Virus record (IMG/VR): IMGVR_UViG_2617270964_000009
Origin: a virus
Lineage: Duplodnaviria > Heunggongvirae > Uroviricota > Caudoviricetes
Direction: 5' to 3' (one strand)
Length of the DNA: 37,718 bases
Below, piece after piece: positions 23,591 to 37,718 of this stretch. The first letter of the stretch is position 1. Each line of letters begins with the position of its first letter. Under the pieces are notes generated by a model. The model saw nothing but the letters and a program-made list of their open reading frames with translations, had not been told where the DNA came from and ran no database searches. The position numbers and the translations under genes are program-made.

Positions 23591-24237
23591 TTCTGTAATC
23601 CTTCCCGTTCATCCAGTAACGCGTTTATCTGGTTCCGCCAGCGACGACATTGTCCTGCGTTGTCGATGATGTTGGCGAGAACGTCACGCTGGGAGACACC
23701 CGAATCGCGTAACCGGGTGTCAGTGGTTTCAGGTTGCCCGGTCGCTGTGCCAGAGCGGGTGCCAGCGGCGGCAACTGAGTCTGAATGACCGGTGTCGACG
23801 GATGCGTTGTCATATCCGAGTGCGGCGTTGTACTGGCGCACGAAACCGCGAGTAAACACGCACTCAATGGGATGGCTCTTACCTTTTTCATCAATCCAGC
23901 GCTGTGTGACATCGTTAATTTGCCCCTGTAGTTGTTTATTCCGGCTCTCCAGTTGAGCAATCTGCTCAAGATAACCGGCTTCAGCCCGCTGCCCGGCGGC
24001 CACCTGCTCCTGATACCGTCTGGCCCAGGCCCGCAGCGCAGCATTCTCAAGCGTTGTCTGCTCCGTTTTGTACGCGTCAAATGCTGACTGCAACTGACTG
24101 AGCGCGGTATCACCGTCACGCTTTGCAGAGTCATGACCACTTCTGTATCCCATGGCATACAGGCCGACCAGAAAGGCATTGATAAGAATGGCCAGCAGAA
24201 TGCCGCGCCACGGCAGCTTTTTAACCAGATGCCACAC
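23587..24237 (-). CDS. Rz-like inner-membrane spanin (i-spanin), start taken at GTG 24237
   Basis: The GTG has a GGGGAGG Shine-Dalgarno 8 nt upstream; N-terminal TM (WRGILLAILINAFLVGLYAMGY) then a coiled-coil periplasmic region; an Rz1-like ORF is embedded in the +1 frame. Confidence 0.6.
   Translation of the reverse strand: MWHLVKKLPWRGILLAILINAFLVGLYAMGYRSGHDSAKRDGDTALSQLQSAFDAYKTEQTTLENAALRAWARRYQEQVAAGQRAEAGYLEQIAQLESRNKQLQGQINDVTQRWIDEKGKSHPIECVFTRGFVRQYNAALGYDNASVDTGHSDSVAAAGTRSGTATGQPETTDTRLRDSGVSQRDVLANIIDNAGQCRRWRNQINALLDEREGLQK
23625..23891 (-). CDS. Rz1-like outer-membrane lipoprotein spanin (o-spanin), embedded in Rz
   Basis: MKKVRAIPLSACLLAVSCAS: signal peptide with a lipobox-like AVSC; mature part is proline-rich (TPHSDMTTHPSTPVIQTQLPPLAPALAQRPGNLKPLTPGY). 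Confidence 0.55.
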   Translation of the reverse strand: MKKVRAIPLSACLLAVSCASTTPHSDMTTHPSTPVIQTQLPPLAPALAQRPGNLKPLTPGYAIRVSPSVTFSPTSSTTQDNVVAGGTR

Positions 24238-24961
24238 AACTGCTGCCTCCCCATGTGAGATATCGCGGTGCCAGTTCGCGCAGGATGCGCTGCGGATAAT
24301 GGCGGTTCTCCCGCCAGCTGGCCGCATTGCGTCCGGCATTCACCGTGGCGACATGTCCGAACCAGCGGGTGCTGTCCAGACCTTTCTGTGATGCAAGCCG
24401 CCTGTCCCGTTGTACCCAGCCCAGACCACCGTTATAGCCCGACAGTGTCATGGCCATACGCTCGCAGTCACTGGCGGCGCTGACACGCTGCCACAGCCAG
24501 CGGTCATAGCTGACCAGCGCCCGGATAGCCCATGCCGGATTAAACGGCTCACGACTGCTCAGCATCGGTATCAACTGGCTTATCCAGTCGGCAGTGGCAG
24601 GCATGAACTGCGCCAGTCCCTGAGCGCCAGCCGGCGAGATCGCATCAGGTCGCCAGCCGCTTTCCTGATGCAGTTGCGCGGCGAAATCGGCCACCGGCGC
24701 AGACAGTCCCCATTCAAGCCGGGCATTACGGATCACATCATCGCGATACTGCAGCGCAGCCTGCGGAGGTTGTGCTGCGCATGCCTGGCTGAAAAAGCCG
24801 CCACACCAGAGCAACATTGCGACAAAGAATACCCATGCCATATGAACCAGAAAGGTCCCGGCGCGGACTGACAGGCGTTCGGTTCTGATGAAGACCCGAA
24901 AGGCTTCGAAAGCCAGTTTCAGGGACATGCATACAATCCAGGTGATCTGCGGCCAGTTCAT
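24221..24961 (-). CDS. Endolysin, lytic transglycosylase (SLT-domain) type with N-terminal hydrophobic/SAR-like segment
   Basis: Contains HQESGW...GAQGLAQFMP, the SLT catalytic region with the catalytic Glu; TM-like MAWVFFVAMLLWCGGFF; ATG is 2 nt after the upstream stop. An alternative start at M41 (24841) is possible. Confidence 0.7.
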   Translation of the reverse strand: MNWPQITWIVCMSLKLAFEAFRVFIRTERLSVRAGTFLVHMAWVFFVAMLLWCGGFFSQACAAQPPQAALQYRDDVIRNARLEWGLSAPVADFAAQLHQESGWRPDAISPAGAQGLAQFMPATADWISQLIPMLSSREPFNPAWAIRALVSYDRWLWQRVSAASDCERMAMTLSGYNGGLGWVQRDRRLASQKGLDSTRWFGHVATVNAGRNAASWRENRHYPQRILRELAPRYLTWGGSSCVASG

Positions 24962-24963
24962 GA

Positions 24964-25314
24964 TTAAAGCCCCATCGCAACAGCCAGGCAGACCGCTGCA
25001 ACAATCAGTGCACGGCGGATTAACGCAGCAGAAAACACCAGGTGAAGGCCGGTCTGTACCGGGAAACGCCCTTCAGCCATCAGCCTGTCGTCATGTTTCA
25101 GGTACTGACCGGGACGGGCTTTGGGGAAGAGCGAACGGTCAAGCCAGTAACCCAGCACTGCTGCCAGCGTGATGAGTGCCAGCTTGTAGATCACAACAGG
25201 CAGCTGCTGTGGTGAGACCAGAGCGATGGTGCCCAGCAACAGCACTGAGGTCAGCAGCCAGCCGCTGAGGCGAGGTTTTTTAACAGGGGGAATGAATTTT
25301 TTCAGGTTTTTCAT
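24964..25314 (-). CDS. Holin-like membrane protein (3 predicted TM segments)
   Basis: Start chosen at ATG 25314 (MKNLKKF) with a GAGGAG Shine-Dalgarno 7 nt upstream; three hydrophobic helices; sits first in the lysis cassette. Confidence 0.5.
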   Translation of the reverse strand: MKNLKKFIPPVKKPRLSGWLLTSVLLLGTIALVSPQQLPVVIYKLALITLAAVLGYWLDRSLFPKARPGQYLKHDDRLMAEGRFPVQTGLHLVFSAALIRRALIVAAVCLAVAMGL

Positions 25315-25444
25315 GTGTGTCTCCTCGTTTGGTGGAGACAGCATCACAAATACAGGGCGCAAAGGATTTTAAAGCGCGTTAAGAGAGCCGGGGATACGGG
25401 ATGTGCAGGATAAACGATGAATTATTCACAGAGGAGAATACGAT

Positions 25445-26173
25445 ATGACGCACACACTGAATCCGGTCATCACTGTCACTGTGTCCGATCCTGTGGGCAG
25501 CGGTAAAAGTTACGTACTGGCGCGGATAGAAGAGATGGTGAAACAGGAACTCGGAAACAGCGTCATTGTCGATGCTGCTGACGTGGAGAATGAGCGCCGT
25601 ATGAATGGCGAAGATCTGACGACCTGGCAGAAGCCACGGGGTGGCACAGTGATCAGGCTGGAGGAATACACGGGACAGGGCCTGTTGTCATACGGCGAGG
25701 AGCGTATCTGTCGGACGAATGAGCTGCTGGATGTTATATGCCCCACGGGCCGGCAACCCTGGATACTGCCCGATGCACTGCATGCCACCATTGCGGCACT
25801 GATGACAGTTTACGATCAGGAGCTGCTCATGAAGGAGTTACGTAAACTCACCGGTCAGCCAACAGAATGTTGTTCGTCTCCGAAGTACGGCAAACAGGAA
25901 CACATCCCGATTAACCAGCCTCCCCGGTTCTTCGACGAATACCTTCTGACACCGGAAAATAAAGCTGAGCATGAAGAGATCAAAGCGGCGTTGTTCCGGG
26001 AAATCAGGAAGATTGCTGAAATGCAGTTGGGGGGCGGGCTGGACAGAGTGATGGCGAGAGGAGAATGGGCATCGCTGTTTGAAAGAGTTTCCCCGGAATT
26101 ACTTCCCCTCGCACTGGCTATCGGGATTATGCAGACAGCGGATAAACCTCACTTACGTTCATTAAACACGTAA
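25445..26173 (+). CDS. Hypothetical protein (242 aa) with a degenerate P-loop-like motif
   Basis: Strong RBS (GAGGAG, 7-nt spacing); N-terminal VTVSDPVGSGKSY resembles a Walker-A-like P-loop but is non-canonical; no other recognisable domain. Confidence 0.5.
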   Translation: MTHTLNPVITVTVSDPVGSGKSYVLARIEEMVKQELGNSVIVDAADVENERRMNGEDLTTWQKPRGGTVIRLEEYTGQGLLSYGEERICRTNELLDVICPTGRQPWILPDALHATIAALMTVYDQELLMKELRKLTGQPTECCSSPKYGKQEHIPINQPPRFFDEYLLTPENKAEHEEIKAALFREIRKIAEMQLGGGLDRVMARGEWASLFERVSPELLPLALAIGIMQTADKPHLRSLNT

Positions 26174-26553
26174 CGCATAATCCGGGATACGCATTCAGCG
26201 ATGACTGCATTTTCACCGGTTTTTACTGCATCCAGAAGTGACTCTTTAAATGGTACGGGCCGGGGCTGCAGAAAGGTCGGCATGGCATTGAGCAGACAGA
26301 GCGTTTTTTCCGTGAGGACGACATCAGCCGCTCCCACAGCCAGCAACTGAGAGTAACGAATATAGCTGTTATCCCGAAGCCATATCAGCGTATCAATAAA
26401 ACACCGGCACTTTTTCTGGTCGTGATCAACCTGGTCCGGGATATCGAAAAAACCAGAATAAATCAAAACCTGAGGTGCCGGATGCGTGTTCAGTAATCGG
26501 CAGAATATTTTGCCGGTGAGTACATAAAAATCATCATTTAAGGAGTGCATCAT
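26149..26553 (-). CDS. Hypothetical protein (134 aa)
   Basis: Starts ATGATG with GGGGA upstream; its 3' end overlaps the 242-aa ORF by 25 bp (convergent) and its start codon overlaps the 71-aa ORF start (divergent). Confidence 0.35.
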   Translation of the reverse strand: MMHSLNDDFYVLTGKIFCRLLNTHPAPQVLIYSGFFDIPDQVDHDQKKCRCFIDTLIWLRDNSYIRYSQLLAVGAADVVLTEKTLCLLNAMPTFLQPRPVPFKESLLDAVKTGENAVIAECVSRIMRYVFNERK

Positions 26554-26767
26554 GAATCCCCGATTAACGTTAACAGAACATCAGCGCCGTGCTGAAGCAG
26601 TGAACAATGTTCTGGAAGATATTATCCGGTTATACCGCGGAGAACTGAGTGTCTGTCGTGCCGCTTTTCATTTTCAGGGAATACAAAAGCAGTTTGATAC
26701 TTCTGTTTTTGCAGAAGGTATTACTTATGCCCTGGACCGGATAAGGTCAGAAAATCGCCCCGGATAA
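26552..26767 (+). CDS. Hypothetical small protein (71 aa)
   Basis: AAGGAG Shine-Dalgarno 6 nt upstream of the ATG; no recognisable motif. Confidence 0.4.
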   Translation: MNPRLTLTEHQRRAEAVNNVLEDIIRLYRGELSVCRAAFHFQGIQKQFDTSVFAEGITYALDRIRSENRPG

Positions 26768-26823
26768 TCCCTAAACCACATTAACAGAAATCCCGCCATC
26801 CCTGCCGCATCATGAAAGAACGA

Positions 26824-26851
26824 CCAGCCCGGCACCCGAAAGCCGGGCTGG
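26824..26851. other. GC-rich hairpin (ccagcccggc-acccgaaa-gccgggctgg) between the 71-aa ORF and dam
   Basis: Perfect 10-bp stem, 8-nt loop; no U-tract on the plus strand, so more likely an RNA structure or regulatory element than a canonical terminator. Confidence 0.35.
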
Positions 26852-26957
26852 TCATCGCCCCACAGGAATGCGCTGTGAGCCGACCAAGGTTCAGTCAGTC
26901 TCGCGAGACCTGACCAGACTGCCATATTTTTTAATAATTGTAAAAGGCTTACAGATT

Positions 26958-27725
26958 ATGAAAATGCAGACATTACCCATCGTGCCGTGGATTGGTGGCA
27001 AACGCCGCCTTGCAAAACACATTCTGCCGCTGTTTCCGGCGCATGAATGTTATGTGGAGCCGTTTTGTGGGGCAGCAGCGCTCTATTTTCTTAAGACACC
27101 CGGCAAGATCGAAGTCATCAATGATATCAACGGTGAACTGGTGAATCTGTACCGGGTGGTAAAGCATCACCTGGAAGAATTTGTCCGCCAGTTCAAATGG
27201 GCGCTGGTCAGCCGTCAGATCTACAAATGGCTGCAGATCACCCCGGAAGAAACACTGACGGATATCCAGCGTGCGGCACGGTTCTACTACCTCCAGAAGC
27301 AGGCGTTTGGTGGCAAGGTGGCAGAGCATAGTTTCGGCACCTCCACCACATCCCCGCCACGCTTCAACCTGCTGCGTATTGAGGAAGAGCTCTCAGCGGC
27401 ACACCTGCGACTTTCCAGAACGGTGATAGAACACATGGACTGGCAACAGTGCATTGAGCGTTATGACCGTCCGCACACGCTGTTCTACTGCGACCCACCG
27501 TACCTGGGTACGGAAGGCTATGGTGTGGATTTTCCTGAAGGGAACTACTCGCGGTTGGCAGAGCTGGCCCGTTGCATCAGAGGAAAGATGATTATATCGG
27601 TCAACGATATCCCGGAAATGCGGCAGGTTTTTAACGGTCTGAACATTCACTGTGTGAAGGTCAACTACAGTCTTGCAGGAAAGGGAACACTACGGCGCGA
27701 ACTTATTGTAAGTAATTTAGAGTAG
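26958..27725 (+). CDS. dam: DNA adenine methyltransferase, Dam/D12 class (N6-adenine)
   Basis: N-terminal PIVPWIGGKRRLAKHILPLFP, the AdoMet motif EPFCGAAALYF and the catalytic DPPY tetrapeptide (FYCDPPYLGTEGYG). Confidence 0.85.
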   Translation: MKMQTLPIVPWIGGKRRLAKHILPLFPAHECYVEPFCGAAALYFLKTPGKIEVINDINGELVNLYRVVKHHLEEFVRQFKWALVSRQIYKWLQITPEETLTDIQRAARFYYLQKQAFGGKVAEHSFGTSTTSPPRFNLLRIEEELSAAHLRLSRTVIEHMDWQQCIERYDRPHTLFYCDPPYLGTEGYGVDFPEGNYSRLAELARCIRGKMIISVNDIPEMRQVFNGLNIHCVKVNYSLAGKGTLRRELIVSNLE

Positions 27726-27750
27726 GCTCAGAAGGAGGTAAGTAGTCTTG

Positions 27751-27782
27751 CATAACAATGCACCTGATGGTGCATTGTTATG
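27751..27782. terminator. Perfect 14-bp stem / 4-nt loop hairpin between convergent dam and the RexB-like gene
   Basis: cataacaatgcacc-tgat-ggtgcattgttatg; overlaps the stop codon of the minus-strand gene and is followed by a moderately T-rich stretch on the plus strand. Confidence 0.4.
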
Positions 27783-28215
27783 ATATCACTTTGATTATAT
27801 TGAATAATCGCCTACCTGTTTGTAATAAACACAACATAGACATAACAACAAGCCCAATGAGGATAGCGGCTACAATCTCTTGATGCTTACTTTGCAGCAT
27901 CAACCCAATCAAACATGTCAACACCAACACTAGCAAAACTAAGCAAGTGTAGAATGCATCGGTCATCAGACGCTTGTAATGTCCGGTTTTTTGCATGTTT
28001 TTAAGTAACGGTTTATCAAGCAATGATGCAAGTAGTGCAATTGCTGTAATAATAAAACCTAACAACGTTGCAAAGACACTGGACAATGTAGTCATGAAGT
28101 TTGGGATTGCGGCTACTGGCATATGGGGCAACTTGAACCAGTAGAGAAAACCAATCCCACATCCAATCAATAAACTAAGCAATAGGGCCGAGTTCATCTT
28201 CTCCAATATATGCAT
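27778..28215 (-). CDS. RexB-like four-TM membrane protein (about 145 aa)
   Basis: Start taken at ATG 28215 (GGGAGAG Shine-Dalgarno, 5-nt spacing); four hydrophobic helices; the TLSSVFATLLGFIITAIALL segment resembles lambda RexB TM2 as recalled from memory; last gene of the repressor operon; low GC. Confidence 0.55.
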   Translation of the reverse strand: MHILEKMNSALLLSLLIGCGIGFLYWFKLPHMPVAAIPNFMTTLSSVFATLLGFIITAIALLASLLDKPLLKNMQKTGHYKRLMTDAFYTCLVLLVLVLTCLIGLMLQSKHQEIVAAILIGLVVMSMLCLLQTGRRLFNIIKVIS

Positions 28216-29068
28216 TGATACTCTCCCGGTTTTCAGCATACGCAGTATCGATTAGACGGTACATGGTTTCGGCTGGAGGGAAACGAGCGTCAGTAACTAC
28301 CGATTGATAGGACGAAATACGCTCGGCAATCAAATCCACAGGATGGACAACACCATCAGCATCGAACACATCAATTACAGCCTTTTTCGCCCCAAACTCG
28401 ACTAACTCTTGCATAGCAAATTTTATATTCTGCTTAAGCCTACCATCACTATCGCCACGGCGAGTATTAATCCCCATTACAATTTGCATTGTATCGGCAC
28501 CTGCATCACCAAGCAGTTGTAGTGTCTTTTGACTGAAATCAGTATCAGGGTAAAACTCAGGATTACGGGGGCGAGGAATCGTCAACTGGATTTTTTTCAT
28601 TTTGACATCTCCTCTCATAAGCCTAGCGATTGCATCTTTTTCCAGCAAAGGTGCGGGCTTAACCTTTGAACCAAAGATAGTTGAAAGAAATGCACTAAAA
28701 CGGCTTATACCACAAGCCATATGATTATAGTGCCAACCTATAACATTGATTCGAGGATAGAATACAAAGAAATTGCGCTCAATGATCCCTTCATCCTTGG
28801 CAAGTGGAATAGGGGTAGACTGTTTCCCTGGTGCACCTTTATCCGGAATGTTCGAGTTGCGAAATTTTCTCAACTCTCCACTAAAAGAACCATCCGCGCG
28901 TTTTTTCAACCCCCAAATTTCTCTAGTAAAACCCTCATGGTTTGAAGAGGAAGGGCTCTGTTTATCAATTACAGATTGAAAAGCATCTCCGAGATTTGCC
29001 AGCTGATCTGTGGCCTTAAACGATAGCTGATGAAACTCAATACGATAATTTCTCACATCACCACTCAT
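28175..29068 (-). CDS. RexA-like protein (297 aa), partner of the membrane protein
   Basis: AAGGA Shine-Dalgarno; sits directly downstream of the CI-like repressor in the same orientation; size near lambda RexA (279 aa); low GC. Homology is unverified. Confidence 0.5.
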   Translation of the reverse strand: MSGDVRNYRIEFHQLSFKATDQLANLGDAFQSVIDKQSPSSSNHEGFTREIWGLKKRADGSFSGELRKFRNSNIPDKGAPGKQSTPIPLAKDEGIIERNFFVFYPRINVIGWHYNHMACGISRFSAFLSTIFGSKVKPAPLLEKDAIARLMRGDVKMKKIQLTIPRPRNPEFYPDTDFSQKTLQLLGDAGADTMQIVMGINTRRGDSDGRLKQNIKFAMQELVEFGAKKAVIDVFDADGVVHPVDLIAERISSYQSVVTDARFPPAETMYRLIDTAYAENRESINAYIGEDELGPIA

Positions 29069-29139
29069 ACGATTAATCCTTAACGCGGAAAGTTCAGATG
29101 GTTAGTGCAAACAGCACATCCTACTGTTTAAATCAGCGC

Positions 29140-29170
29140 ATATAACGAAGAGGTTTGATAACCTTGTCAA
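29140..29170 (-). promoter_or_regulatory. Candidate sigma70 promoter for the rexA/rexB-like genes (TTGACA-19 nt-TTATAT on the minus strand)
   Basis: Found in the 122-bp gap between the repressor stop and the rexA-like start; the spacer is 19 nt, which is long. Confidence 0.25.
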
Positions 29171-29190
29171 TTGTTCTCATTGGGAATAGA

Positions 29191-29607
29191 TTAACCCACA
29201 TTTTTTAACCGCTCAATCGTTGCGGATAATTCCTTCAGTTGTTTTTCCATCTCGATCACTCGCTGTTTTTCCGCAGCGCCTCGCAGAAGATCGTTACGAA
29301 CCTCGGGGTCTAGCTGCTTTAAAAGCTCAAGCATAGTAAGGTCAGCTTGGCTAAACTGCACTTGCGTCGGAGTTACGTCTACTTCTTTTGATAAACCTTG
29401 TTTTCTACCTGTTAGCAACCAATCTAAAGAAACCCCCTTTTCTTCTGCGATGTTTATGCAAATTGCATAAGGCACAGAATCACGCTTCCTCCAACTTGCA
29501 AGTGTCTGCCTATTGACGTTAAGCGCTCTTGCCAACTCACTATCATTCTCTGCTTGGAATAGTGACATTAACCGGGAAAGCACAGCGTTAACATCTTTGT
29601 TATTCAT
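29191..29607 (-). CDS. CI-like prophage repressor (HTH; no peptidase domain)
   Basis: SELARALNVNRQTLASWRKRDSVPYAICINIAEEKGVSLDWLLTG is the phage CI-repressor HTH signature; coiled-coil C-terminus; divergent from the ner-like gene. ATG at 29607 preferred over the track's upstream start at 29622. Confidence 0.75.
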   Translation of the reverse strand: MNNKDVNAVLSRLMSLFQAENDSELARALNVNRQTLASWRKRDSVPYAICINIAEEKGVSLDWLLTGRKQGLSKEVDVTPTQVQFSQADLTMLELLKQLDPEVRNDLLRGAAEKQRVIEMEKQLKELSATIERLKNVG

Positions 29608-29637
29608 TTTGCGTAATTCCACTTGATTTATTTATTT

Positions 29638-29657
29638 TGAATAAGTACATTTATTCA
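29638..29657. promoter_or_regulatory. Operator-like palindrome in the repressor/ner divergent control region
   Basis: tgaataa-gtacat-ttattca (perfect 7-bp arms); AGTACAT recurs 19 bp downstream at 29663-29669; the whole region is AT-rich. Confidence 0.3.
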
Positions 29658-29695
29658 TATTGAGTACATGATAACCCAACTGGAACTATCCGCAT

Positions 29696-29920
29696 ATGAA
29701 TAAACAACAAGTTCGGGCACGACTAGTTGAACGAGGCAGTAGCTTGCGCCAGTTCGCGCTTAACGCAGGCTATGAGCCACGAACAGTCACACAGGCAGTC
29801 AGTCGCTGGGCTGGTAAAAGTGAACTACCACGTGGTCGTTTGACTTATCGGATTTTGCGAGATCTATCGGTTGCAATAGGTAAAGAAGTTACCCCCGGTA
29901 TCCTTAAGGAGGTGTCATGA
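29696..29920 (+). CDS. ner: Ner-like DNA-binding protein (Cro analogue of Mu-like phages)
   Basis: 74 aa; SLRQFALNAGYEPRTVTQAVSRWAG matches the Ner family pattern; first gene of the rightward early operon, divergent from the repressor. Confidence 0.65.
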   Translation: MNKQQVRARLVERGSSLRQFALNAGYEPRTVTQAVSRWAGKSELPRGRLTYRILRDLSVAIGKEVTPGILKEVS

Positions 29921-36915: not shown

Positions 36916-37357
36916 ACAACGTCTTATCCAGCTCATTCATATTGCCCGTAATGAACTGGGTATGGATGAAGACAGCTACCGCCAGATGTTACAGGGGCTG
37001 ACCGGTAAAGCCTCAACCAAAGGAATGGATACCACACAACTAAACTGCGTGCTGGAATCCATGAAAAGGAAAGGCTTTCGCGTTAAGCCTGCCGGAAAAG
37101 CCAGCTCCGGTTTACCGCTGGATAACCATCCGCAGTCCAGGAAAATCCGTGCGCTATGGCTTGAAATGGCTGCTGCCGGCATTGTTCGTGACCGTTCAGA
37201 AAATGCATTAGCGCGGTGGATCAAGCGGGAAACGGGCATCAGCGCCCTGCGCTGGCTCAATACTGAACAGGCAAGCAGTGTTATTGAGAAACTGAAGAAG
37301 TGGCAGCGCAGAGCTGCGGGAGTAAAACATGAGCGACCTGAATCAGTTTCGAAGTAA
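36905..37357 (+). CDS. gemA: GemA-like regulatory protein (Mu gp16 family)
   Basis: KQRLIQLIHIARNELGMDEDSYRQMLQGLTGKAS...QLNCVLESMKRKGF follows the GemA N-terminal pattern; AGGAG Shine-Dalgarno; immediately precedes mor. Confidence 0.65.
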   Translation: MMTKQRLIQLIHIARNELGMDEDSYRQMLQGLTGKASTKGMDTTQLNCVLESMKRKGFRVKPAGKASSGLPLDNHPQSRKIRALWLEMAAAGIVRDRSENALARWIKRETGISALRWLNTEQASSVIEKLKKWQRRAAGVKHERPESVSK

Positions 37358-37718
37358 AGGGCCGGAACTCCTGGTGGAACTGGCACAGCATACCTCTGAG
37401 ACCGTTCGCGAGATTATTGATATTGAGCCCGCAATTGCCGACCAGATTGGTCAGGCCGTCGCGAACCGCATGATGCAGGTCTGGGGCGGGCAAAACGTTT
37501 ATTTCCCGATGGGCATGGTATGGAAGGTCAGTCAGCGCGATCGGGAAATCTTCAGGGAGTTTAACGGACGTAACCACCATGAACTGGCCCGCAAATTTGG
37601 TGTTTCGCTTCAGTGGGTCTACAGCGTGGTTAAGCGGGTAAGAAAAGAAGAACTGGATCGGATGCAGGGCAAGCTATTTGCTGATGAACCCGATGTAGAT
37701 ACGGAGAAAAAAGAGTAA
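37329..37718 (+). CDS. mor: Mor-like middle-operon transcriptional activator (Mor/C family)
   Basis: C-terminal GGQNVYFPMG...FNGRNHHELARKFGVSLQWVYSVVKR matches the Mor/C HTH region; GGGAG Shine-Dalgarno; the window ends at its stop codon. Confidence 0.8.
   Translation: MSDLNQFRSKGPELLVELAQHTSETVREIIDIEPAIADQIGQAVANRMMQVWGGQNVYFPMGMVWKVSQRDREIFREFNGRNHHELARKFGVSLQWVYSVVKRVRKEELDRMQGKLFADEPDVDTEKKE

What the first reader, a model, noticed from the sequence alone, without database searches (positions are those of the whole stretch)
25445..26767. Junction cargo: three unannotatable ORFs with unusual overlaps, including a degenerate P-loop protein
Between the lysis cassette and dam lie a 242-aa protein with a non-canonical P-loop-like motif (SDPVGSGKS), a convergent 134-aa ORF overlapping it by 25 bp, and a 71-aa ORF whose start codon overlaps the 134-aa start on the opposite strand. 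All have plausible RBSs and none resembles a structural or replication gene. Prophage junctions of this kind are where defence, anti-defence and toxin-antitoxin cargo accumulates.
Basis: seen in the sequence. Interest (0 to 1): 0.55.

Follow-up and report, generated by a model that had tools for sequence, protein, structure and literature searches.

The report
Prophage accessory genes with back-to-back pair
The three small genes are real accessory genes of a Mu-like E. coli prophage: one carries a tiny nucleotide-binding-loop module that a single private mutation has spoiled in this copy, and the other two form a head-to-head gene pair, also found in the anti-virus gene hotspot of unrelated P2-like phages, whose function is still unknown.

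Summary
All three ORFs, their overlaps and their ribosome-binding sites are as described. The window is a whole BcepMu-like transposable prophage, found in about 11% of complete E. coli genomes. The ORFs lie in its variable region between the lysis genes and the repressor.

They are two independent units, not a 242/134 pair.

1. ORF242 belongs to a small enterobacterial family. It has a roughly 75-aa N-terminal mini P-loop module fused to shuffled C-terminal modules. The "degenerate" motif is one private SNP (G15D, base 25488); relatives carry the canonical GPVGSGKS.

2. ORF134 and ORF71 are a conserved back-to-back cassette. ORF134 has an acidic winged-helix fold. In all 53 loci examined a small ORF starts on the opposite strand at a shared CATG. 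Most of these loci are in the gpA-gpQ defence hotspot of P2-like phages. Both genes are under purifying selection there.

No library of known defence, toxin-antitoxin or regulator families matches any of the three. My best guess is that the cassette is a self-contained expression switch; this is inferred, not shown.

Interest is moderate: the cargo itself is ordinary, but the cassette has an unusual architecture shared across phage families and I found no description of it.

The parts
25315..25444 (.). Intergenic region between the holin start (RefSeq start corresponds to 25314, - strand) and ORF242. Presumed divergent promoters for the late/lysis operon and for ORF242.
   Evidence: Coordinates. 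The promoter role is inferred; no consensus promoter was found here.
25445..26173 (+). ORF242, a mosaic protein: N-terminal mini P-loop module, variable middle, C-terminal helical module.
   Evidence: (phrog_3787, E 7e-167). The AlphaFold model is poor (pLDDT 49).
25445..25669 (+). Mini P-loop module (aa 1-75): strand, Walker A, helix, strand, W61..P64, strand. This is the only part shared with distant relatives.
   Evidence: 40-57% identity over residues 1-75 in proteins of 156-364 aa. It also stands alone in L070 3989-4240. The PDB profile matches only the Walker-A strand-loop-helix of ABC ATPases and the designed P-loop protein 6c2u.
25484..25510 (+). Walker A region SDPVGSGKS. A25488 (GGT to GAT) gives G15D, a private substitution.
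25940..26170 (+). C-terminal helical module of ORF242 (D-x-V-x-x-R-x-x-W motif). It is a separate 102-aa gene in the Serratia-type relative.
   Evidence: pLDDT is 55-79 over residues 170-240.
26149..26173 (.). 25-bp convergent overlap of the 3' ends of ORF242 and ORF134, with no terminator hairpin.
   Evidence: Fold z-scores are -0.24 and -1.5. The Serratia-type locus has a 37-bp overlap at the same place.
26149..26553 (-). ORF134: a winged-helix-fold protein (aa 3-88, 26290-26547) plus two C-terminal helices. The likelier start is the second ATG at 26550.
26498..26515 (.). 18-bp near-perfect palindrome CGGCAGAATATTTTGCCG inside ORF134 codons 13-19, 37-54 nt upstream of the ORF71 ATG. Candidate operator.
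   Evidence: The same codons are kept in the 52-54%-identical Serratia-type gene. Function is inferred.
26548..26554 (.). Shared start-codon block CATCATG: ORF71 ATG on +, ORF134 ATGs on -. Each gene's Shine-Dalgarno lies within the other's first codons.
   Evidence: A shared CATG is conserved in all 53 loci examined.
26552..26767 (+). ORF71, the small partner of ORF134.
   Evidence: phrog_4490. A positional equivalent of 63-86 aa is present in every relative. There are only weak HTH_psq and excisionase-like hints (E 0.08-0.36).
26822..26853 (.). Strong hairpin between ORF71 and dam. It is followed by a U-rich stretch only on the - strand, so it is a likely terminator or insulator.
   Evidence: -28.9 and -36.3 kcal/mol, z -6.2 and -5.3. 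The exact stem sequence is found in 17 of the 87 loci fetched, all copies of this prophage type.
26958..27725 (+). dam (D12-class N6-adenine methyltransferase), a neighbour and not part of the cassette.
   Evidence: Pfam PF02086, E 1.2e-29. It occurs without ORF71/ORF134 in L008, L009 and L071.

Best explanation
The three ORFs are real, dispensable accessory genes in the variable region of a BcepMu-like transposable prophage. That region lies between the late/lysis operon and the immunity region. The ORFs form two independent units.

Unit 1 is ORF242. It belongs to a small enterobacterial family whose only constant part is a roughly 75-aa N-terminal module with a Walker-A loop. That module is too short to be a full NTPase. 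The rest of the protein is shuffled small modules. In this window the loop carries a private G15D change, so any phosphate-binding activity is probably impaired in this copy.

Unit 2 is ORF134 plus ORF71, a self-contained back-to-back cassette. ORF134 is an acidic protein with a winged-helix fold. ORF71 is a small partner gene whose start codon and ribosome-binding site are the reverse complement of ORF134's.

My proposed mechanism for Unit 2 is inferred. Each gene must be transcribed from inside or beyond the other. The two mRNAs would therefore be complementary across both translation-initiation regions, and the RNA polymerases would converge. The pair would then behave as a mutually antagonistic expression switch, possibly tuned by the winged-helix protein binding the 18-bp palindrome upstream of ORF71.

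What is shown: the genes are real, they are cargo, the two units are independent, the fold is a winged helix, and the architecture is conserved. What is inferred: the switch behaviour, any nucleic-acid binding, and any biological role, such as control or insulation of neighbouring cargo or conflict with other mobile elements.
For: Genes are real: PHROG matches; dN/dS 0.08 and 0.14-0.17; pN/pS about 0.3; RefSeq calls all three.

Cargo status: alternative gene content at this position in related prophages; BcepMu gp18-20 are unrelated; G+C falls to 43% at the 134/71 junction against 56-63% in the late genes.

Independence of the units.

Private SNP.

Mini P-loop module.

Cassette architecture: a shared CATG and a 63-86-aa divergent ORF in all 53 loci examined, across three lineages down to about 30% identity.

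Extra constraint on the DNA: synonymous diversity is depressed in the first 60 codons of the larger gene (0.14-0.31, apart from 0.43 in codons 21-30) against 0.4-0.5 in most of the 3' half. The palindrome is conserved codon for codon between the window and the Serratia-type gene.

Transcription units: there is no terminator between the convergent ORF242 and ORF134, and a strong hairpin separates ORF71 from dam.

The late activator is accounted for elsewhere: 37329-37718 is 54% identical to BcepMu Mor/C.
Against: No transcription start sites are known. Consensus scans find only weak promoter-like sites inside either gene.

The winged-helix family is acidic (median pI 4.8; core net charge -6 to -7 in P2-type members). 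That is atypical for a DNA-binding repressor and fits a protein-binding winged helix equally well.

The small partners of the window-type and P2-type cassettes show no detectable homology (hhalign probability 0.1), so equivalence rests on position alone.

The palindrome encodes conserved residues (GKIFCR), so its conservation could be purely a coding effect.

The ORF242 model is too poor to say whether the N-module folds as a P-loop (pLDDT 49).

The C-terminal module of ORF242 co-occurs with the cassette in both BcepMu-type lineages where it is seen, so a three-part unit is not excluded.
Confidence: 0.5

Rival explanations
1. The ORF134/ORF71 cassette, possibly with the ORF242 C-terminal module, is itself a small anti-phage defence, exclusion or abortive-infection system.
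For: In P2-like phages the cassette always lies in the cos-proximal gpA-gpQ locus. That locus is a documented defence hotspot (PMC9122126). There the cassette sits next to a retron type VI RT, Fic, GmrSD, an AAA_15 ATPase, NsnA and TIR genes.

In phage Midge the cassette is almost the only content of that locus.

Many unknown genes in P2 and P4 hotspots are predicted or shown to be defensive (PMC13586616).
Against: There are no PADLOC, Pfam or NCBIfam hits. No enzymatic, membrane or other effector-like domain is present. The genes are arranged divergently rather than as an operon. The cassette is conserved beside changing defence genes, which makes it look more like a fixed resident than swappable cargo.
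Confidence: 0.2
2. ORF242 and ORF134 form a convergent toxin-antitoxin-like or defence pair.
For: Their 3' ends overlap by 25 bp with no terminator. A convergent overlap of 37 bp with a homologue of the ORF242 C-terminal module is also seen in the Serratia-type locus.
Against: The mini-P-loop family occurs at the same prophage position without ORF134 (L007, L071, L072). ORF134 relatives occur without any ORF242 relative in 37 distinct P2-type loci. ORF242 diverges by 4% where ORF134 and ORF71 are identical, which implies a recombination break between them. ORF134-null variants keep ORF242 intact.
Confidence: 0.07
3. ORF71 is a Com-like activator of the downstream dam gene, by analogy with Mu com-mom and the com-methyltransferase operons of FluMu-type prophages.
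For: ORF71 lies directly upstream of dam and is co-directional with it, both in the window and in the Serratia-type locus. Mu-like phages place small regulators upstream of their DNA-modification genes (PMC3299994).
Against: ORF71 has one cysteine, whereas Com needs four. The P2-type cassettes have no adjacent dam. dam occurs without ORF71. A strong hairpin separates ORF71 from dam.
Confidence: 0.05
4. ORF242 is an active P-loop NTPase or kinase effector.
For: The family keeps GPxGxGKS almost invariantly. It has weak sub-threshold hits to AAA, ABC and Zeta-toxin models, and NCBI labels short variants 'ABC transporter ATPase'.
Against: Only about 75 residues are conserved. The profile aligns only to the Walker-A strand-loop-helix. 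No Walker B or ABC signature is recognisable. Only three strands are predicted, in a low-confidence model. Deletion variants lacking residues 52-124 exist. Some members have GKN. This copy has G15D.
Confidence: 0.1
5. One or more of the overlapping ORFs is a chance ORF and not a gene.
For: The window contains many long spurious ORFs. GenBank's PhiKM record does not annotate ORF134.
Against: There are PHROG families for all three. Purifying selection acts on both cassette genes. The partner ORF is conserved in all 53 loci examined. The ORF134 model is confident.
Confidence: 0.03

Closest known systems
Cargo of the gpA-gpQ (old/tin) hotspot of P2-like phages (Rousset et al. 2022, PMC9122126)
   Same: Relatives of ORF134 and its small partner sit in exactly this locus in 37 distinct P2-type loci, flanked by recognised defence genes. 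The window's own position is also a variable cargo slot.
   Different: The cassette is conserved while the genes around it change. It matches no catalogued defence family, has no recognisable effector domain, and has not been tested.
Face-to-face promoter switches of P2 (C/Cox) and 186 (CI/Apl). This comparison rests on my own knowledge of those systems.
   Same: A small divergent gene pair whose transcripts must overlap at their 5' ends, with one member having a DNA-binding-type fold.
   Different: There is no sequence relationship. Here the start codons themselves overlap, so the promoters must lie inside coding sequence. Promoters are not mapped. The winged-helix protein is acidic. The cassette sits far from the prophage's own repressor (29191-29622).
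Transcription regulators attached to varied defence systems (BrxR/CapW, CapH-CapP). This comparison rests on my own knowledge.
   Same: A small regulator-like unit found next to many unrelated defence genes. In 9 of 37 distinct P2-type loci the cargo lies directly downstream of the winged-helix gene and is co-directional with it.
   Different: There is no WYL, peptidase or canonical HTH domain and no family match. In most loci the neighbouring gene is convergent.
Mu com-mom and com-adenine methyltransferase operons (PMC3299994)
   Same: A small ORF lies upstream of a DNA-modification gene in a Mu-like phage.
   Different: ORF71 lacks the Cys4 zinc finger, is separated from dam by a hairpin, and travels with ORF134 rather than with dam.
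Walker-A strand-loop-helix of ABC-type ATPases and designed minimal P-loop proteins (PDB 6c2u, 9jix)
   Same: The N-module profile aligns to exactly this element (E 5e-6).
   Different: There is no Walker B, Q-loop or signature motif. The module is about 75 aa and also exists alone as a protein of about 75-83 aa. The window copy has lost the first glycine.

Membership tests
P-loop NTPase | Walker A motif G/AxxxxGK[ST] | tested here: not met
   The window copy reads DPVGSGKS. Relatives read GPVGSGKS. The difference is one SNP at 25488, so the family meets the feature but this copy does not.
P-loop NTPase | Walker B (hhhhD/E) and a complete alpha/beta core of five or more strands | tested here: inconclusive
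   Only three strands are predicted, but the model is poor (pLDDT 49). Conservation stops at about residue 75. Profile matches cover only the Walker-A element.
ABC-type ATPase (NCBI label 'ABC transporter ATPase' on short variants) | Pfam ABC_tran match above threshold, including the LSGGQ signature | tested here: not met
   The best ABC_tran scores are 15-18 bits against a cut-off of 25 and cover only residues 2-57. No LSGGQ-like motif is present in the sequence.
Winged-helix fold | Helix-strand-helix-helix-strand-strand topology, with structural similarity to solved winged-helix domains | tested here: met
MarR / PadR / DUF2513 regulator families | Sequence-profile match to the family | tested here: not met
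   No Pfam hit for ORF134 or for 38 relatives at E up to 1. P0031, which UniRef names DUF2513, has no DUF2513 hit at E up to 10.
Sequence-specific DNA-binding repressor | DNA binding to an operator | not testable with these tools
   A candidate 18-bp palindrome exists, but the family is acidic. An EMSA or footprint is needed.
Type II toxin-antitoxin system | Co-transcribed pair with a recognisable toxin domain, where loss of the antitoxin is not tolerated | tested here: not met
   The genes are divergent (134/71) or convergent (242/134) rather than operonic. No toxin family matches. ORF134-null variants keep ORF71 and ORF242 intact.
Catalogued anti-phage defence systems (PADLOC 2.0) | Match to a defence protein model | tested here: not met
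   Only hits with E of 0.02 or worse for ORF242, and none for ORF134 or ORF71. Neighbours of the P2-type cassette do match strongly.
Mu Com translational activator | Four-cysteine zinc finger, in an operon with the modification gene | tested here: not met
   ORF71 has a single Cys. A hairpin lies between it and dam. Com features are taken from PMC3299994.
T7 gp5.5/5.7 (similarity claimed in the GenBank note for phage Midge) | Profile similarity to gp5.5 or gp5.7 | tested here: not met
   hhalign of the 38-sequence family profile against each T7 protein gave probabilities of 0.07 and 0.28. The T7 side was a single sequence, so power is limited.
Mor/C late transcription activator of Mu-like phages | Homology to Mor/C | tested here: not met
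   ORF134 has no Pfam Mor hit. The window's Mor/C homologue is at 37329-37718, 54% identical to BcepMu gp01.

The most novel reading that the evidence does not exclude
The ORF134/ORF71 unit is a new, mobile two-gene toggle. An acidic winged-helix protein and a small partner would be expressed mutually exclusively, because their start codons, ribosome-binding sites and promoters are embedded in each other. Temperate phages of unrelated families (Bcepmuvirus, Peduoviridae) would keep it in their accessory hotspots, either to switch on or insulate defence cargo, or as a minimal defence or counter-defence device in its own right.
Probability: 0.25. Interest if true: 0.65.

Novelty: new variant of a known kind. 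Interest (0 to 1): 0.4.

Why it matters
If the cassette is a genuine switch or a defence-related unit, it would be a compact new regulatory design shared by accessory hotspots of unrelated temperate phages. The window-type genes are in about 11% of complete E. coli genomes, including many ST131 isolates. One P2-type allele is in a further 94 of 5426 genomes. Knowing what the cassette does would help explain how prophage cargo is expressed in lysogens.

The mini P-loop family is a natural example of a Walker-A module of about 75 aa that can stand alone. That is of some interest for how minimal phosphate-binding domains work.

For annotation, the result corrects the idea of a 'degenerate P-loop protein'. 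It is a canonical family with one mutated copy here.

Tried and rejected
- Pfam, NCBIfam, PADLOC and PDB sequence and profile searches gave no family for any of the three proteins.
- AlphaFold of ORF242 with a 12-sequence alignment was too poor to use (pLDDT 49). No fold search was run on it.
- BFVD fold search of the ORF134 model found nothing significant. The afdb50 library was unavailable.
- The T7 gp5.5/5.7 similarity from the Midge GenBank note was not reproduced.
- Homology between the window-type and P2-type small partners was not detectable.
- P0042 and P0065 in the representative search are repeat-driven artefacts: Ig-domain and SH3 repeat proteins.
- Consensus sigma-70 promoter scans inside the cassette gave only weak, unconvincing sites.
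- Rfam found nothing in 25000-29800.
- BcepMu gp18-gp20 as counterparts: no similarity.
- Literature searches by accession and PHROG id returned nothing.
The family's full range of contexts is therefore under-sampled.
Full report
**What the window is.** The 37.7-kb window is an entire BcepMu-like (genus Bcepmuvirus) transposable prophage of E. coli.
- The finding's region is 98% identical to Escherichia phage PhiKM.
- It is present in 614 of 5426 complete E. coli genomes.
- Late and lysis genes run leftward up to the holin (24964-25362). Early genes run rightward from 29917: a Ner-like HTH, DUF3102, the transposase, an ExeA-type B protein and Gam.
- GemA and a Mor/C late activator lie at the right end, 45% and 54% identical to BcepMu gp02 and gp01.
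- The three ORFs lie between the lysis cassette and the repressor (29191-29622). They share that space with dam and with a leftward pair, a 153-aa membrane protein and a 297-aa protein.

**Checking the observation.** Everything stated is in the sequence.
- ORF242 is at 25445-26173 (+), ORF134 at 26149-26553 (-) and ORF71 at 26552-26767 (+).
- ORF242 and ORF134 overlap convergently by 25 bp. The start codons of ORF134 and ORF71 share 2 nt within gcATCATGaat.
- Shine-Dalgarno sequences are GAGGAG (8 nt spacing) for ORF242 and AAGGAG (6 nt) for ORF71. For ORF134 it is GGGGA, which fits the second ATG (26550) better than the first.
- Long ORFs are common on non-coding frames here, so conservation is what counts. 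Each ORF matches a PHROG family of unknown function over its whole length, and PGAP annotates all three.
- ORF242 alleles show pN/pS of about 0.29.
- In the better-sampled P2-type relatives, the ORF134 homologue has dN/dS 0.08 and its small partner 0.14-0.17, at a median dS of 0.75-0.9.

**The "degenerate P-loop".** All 11 aligned relatives read S-GPVGSGKS, a canonical Walker A.
- The window differs from the Ecol_448 prophage at one base in 1601: A25488 instead of G, giving G15D.
- The window allele is recorded on 4 contigs. The canonical alleles are on at least 1000 and 700 contigs.
- The motif is therefore a private, probably inactivating, substitution or a sequencing error, not a property of the protein family.

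**What ORF242 is.** An exhaustive HMMER scan of 1.84 billion representatives found only 47 relatives.
- Beyond close alleles they share only residues 1-75. The pattern is strand, GPxGxGKS, helix, strand, an invariant W61 and P64, then another strand. Identity is 40-57%.
- This module is attached to quite different, visibly shuffled C-terminal modules, in proteins of 156-364 aa.
- The module also occurs alone, as a protein of about 75-83 aa in an unrelated viral contig (L070). Short 141-158-aa forms and internal-deletion forms exist in E. coli.
- A profile of the module matches only the Walker-A strand-loop-helix of ABC ATPases and a designed minimal P-loop protein. No Walker B or signature motif is seen.
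- The AlphaFold model was poor (pLDDT 49). I therefore regard it as a minimal phosphate-loop module rather than a complete NTPase.
- In Salmonella diarizonae and Citrobacter braakii BcepMu-like prophages, a family member sits in the same place, divergent from the lysis genes. It carries other C-terminal modules and has no ORF134/ORF71 nearby.
- Its function is unknown.

**The real pair is ORF134 plus ORF71.** ORF134 has 29-34% identical relatives in P2-like phages such as Midge, ST147-VIM1phi7.1 and FSL SP-004. In each annotated genome a 63-64-aa gene on the opposite strand starts 2 nt inside it.
- I collected 56 viral loci and examined 53 loci in all, including the window.
- Every one has a 63-86-aa divergent ORF that begins at a shared CATG.
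- This holds in three lineages: the window type, a Serratia type (52-54% identity) and the P2 type (37 distinct sequence pairs).
- Each gene's Shine-Dalgarno lies in the other's first codons.
- The small partners of the window and Serratia types are clearly related to each other. They are not detectably related to the P2-type partners.
- The ORF134 family comprises 86 clusters; every organism named by a source is an enterobacterium, and no cluster has a Pfam domain.

**Structure of ORF134.** With a 38-sequence alignment AlphaFold gave pLDDT 78. The model is a winged-helix core (residues 3-88, with the second helix replaced by a loop) plus two C-terminal helices.
- The family is acidic: median pI is 4.8, and the core carries a net charge of -6 to -7 in P2-type members and -2 in the window.
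- Nucleic-acid binding is therefore not a safe assumption. A protein-binding winged helix is just as plausible.

**Genomic setting.** In E. coli BcepMu-like prophages the holin-to-repressor interval is a cargo slot. Some prophages have holin directly next to dam. Others have a DUF2441 gene plus dam. Others have a truncated P-loop gene plus two unrelated genes and no dam.
- BcepMu itself has unrelated gp18-gp20 there.
- In P2-like phages the cassette always lies between gpA and the portal gene gpQ. This is the cos-proximal defence hotspot described by Rousset et al. (PMC9122126).
- Its neighbours there differ from locus to locus. They include a retron type VI reverse transcriptase, Fic, GmrSD, an AAA_15 ATPase, NsnA, a TIR effector and an MBL-fold protein.
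- In 9 of 37 distinct loci the cargo is directly downstream of the winged-helix gene and co-directional with it. In at least 7 a cargo operon follows the small gene.
- In Midge the cassette is almost alone in the locus.
- The cassette is thus a conserved resident of accessory hotspots in two unrelated temperate-phage families.

**Clues to mechanism.** With start codons back to back, each promoter must lie within or beyond the other gene. The two mRNAs would then be complementary across both initiation regions, and transcription would converge.
- In the P2-type set, synonymous-codon diversity of the larger gene is depressed in the first 60 codons: 0.24-0.31 in codons 1-20 and 0.14-0.25 in codons 31-60, with 0.43 in codons 21-30. 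Most of the 3' half shows 0.4-0.5. This indicates constraints beyond protein coding.
- In the window an 18-bp palindrome (26498-26515) lies 37-54 nt upstream of the ORF71 ATG. The Serratia-type gene keeps it almost codon for codon.
- Against this, consensus promoter scans find nothing convincing, and Rfam finds nothing.
- A strong hairpin (26822-26853) separates ORF71 from dam. No hairpin separates the convergent ORF242 and ORF134.

**Dispensability.** Two viral contigs carry a 318-bp deletion that removes most of ORF134 (window 26182-26499). Another has a stop at codon 41. In all three, ORF71 and ORF242 are intact. This argues against ORF134 being an antitoxin for either neighbour.

**Relation of ORF242 to the cassette.** The two are separable, as shown above. 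Even so, the C-terminal module of ORF242 appears as a separate 102-aa gene in the Serratia-type locus. There it again converges on and overlaps the ORF134 homologue, by 37 bp. I found this module only in these two contexts. Shared ancestry explains this, but a three-part unit within the BcepMu-type lineage is not excluded.

**Verdict.** The cargo interpretation is supported. The proposed 242/134 pairing and the degenerate-P-loop reading are not supported.

The most useful result is the ORF134/ORF71 cassette. I found no description of it, its architecture is conserved, and it sits beside defence genes in P2-like phages. Its function remains inferred. I favour a self-contained expression switch (about 0.35 on its own). 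A small defence or counter-defence unit is the main rival (about 0.2).

Noticed in passing
window 27778-29068 (- strand): A two-gene leftward unit lies directly downstream of the repressor: a 297-aa protein (phrog_7651, E 1.5e-19) and an overlapping 153-aa multi-pass membrane protein. The unit is AT-rich (38-44% G+C). Only 23 of 636 matching genomes cover at least 80% of the 24221-29700 query that includes it, and other prophages carry different genes here (for example a nucleoid-associated protein plus a 401-aa protein in L009). It looks like a second cargo slot, possibly an exclusion or defence pair. There is no PADLOC hit.
   Followed up: partly
window 26822-26853: A very stable hairpin (12-15 bp stem, -29 and -36 kcal/mol, z about -6 and -5) lies between ORF71 and dam. 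A U-rich tail follows it only on the - strand. The exact stem sequence is found in 17 of the 87 loci fetched, all copies of this prophage type.
   Followed up: partly
window 26958-27725 (or from 26868): The D12-class adenine methyltransferase may be the functional analogue of Mu Mom, as shown for the non-specific adenine methyltransferases of FluMu-type prophages (PMC3299994). Its specificity was not examined. PhiKM and RefSeq annotate different start codons.
   Followed up: no
L070 3989-4240 (IMGVR_UViG_3300009944_000236): A stand-alone mini P-loop protein of about 75-83 aa, 37% identical to ORF242 residues 1-65, occurs in an unrelated viral contig. The module is therefore an autonomous unit.
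   Followed up: partly
L083 and L084 (3224-3230 junction); L018 3393-3515: Natural ORF134-null variants of the prophage exist: a 318-bp deletion of window 26182-26499, and a premature stop at codon 41. ORF71 and ORF242 stay intact in each.
   Followed up: yes
window 26170-26195 and ORF134 codons 121-127: A second run of identical codons between the window and the 52-54%-identical Serratia-type gene (GCT GAA TGC GTA TCx CGG ATT) lies just beyond the ORF242 stop codon. It is unexplained and could be a constraint from the convergent transcript.
   Followed up: no
L004, L021, L022, L027, L030, L031, L049, L053, L054 (about +550 to +1800 from the winged-helix start): In nine P2-type loci a retron type VI reverse transcriptase (PADLOC RT_VI, E 1.6e-104) converges on the cassette. 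In all but L049, whose contig ends there, a small HTH gene follows the reverse transcriptase. GenBank calls the reverse transcriptase 'polymerase' in ST147-VIM1phi7.1.
   Followed up: partly
window 37329-37718: The Mor/C-type late activator ORF runs off the right end of the window, so the prophage end lies at or just beyond the window edge.
   Followed up: no
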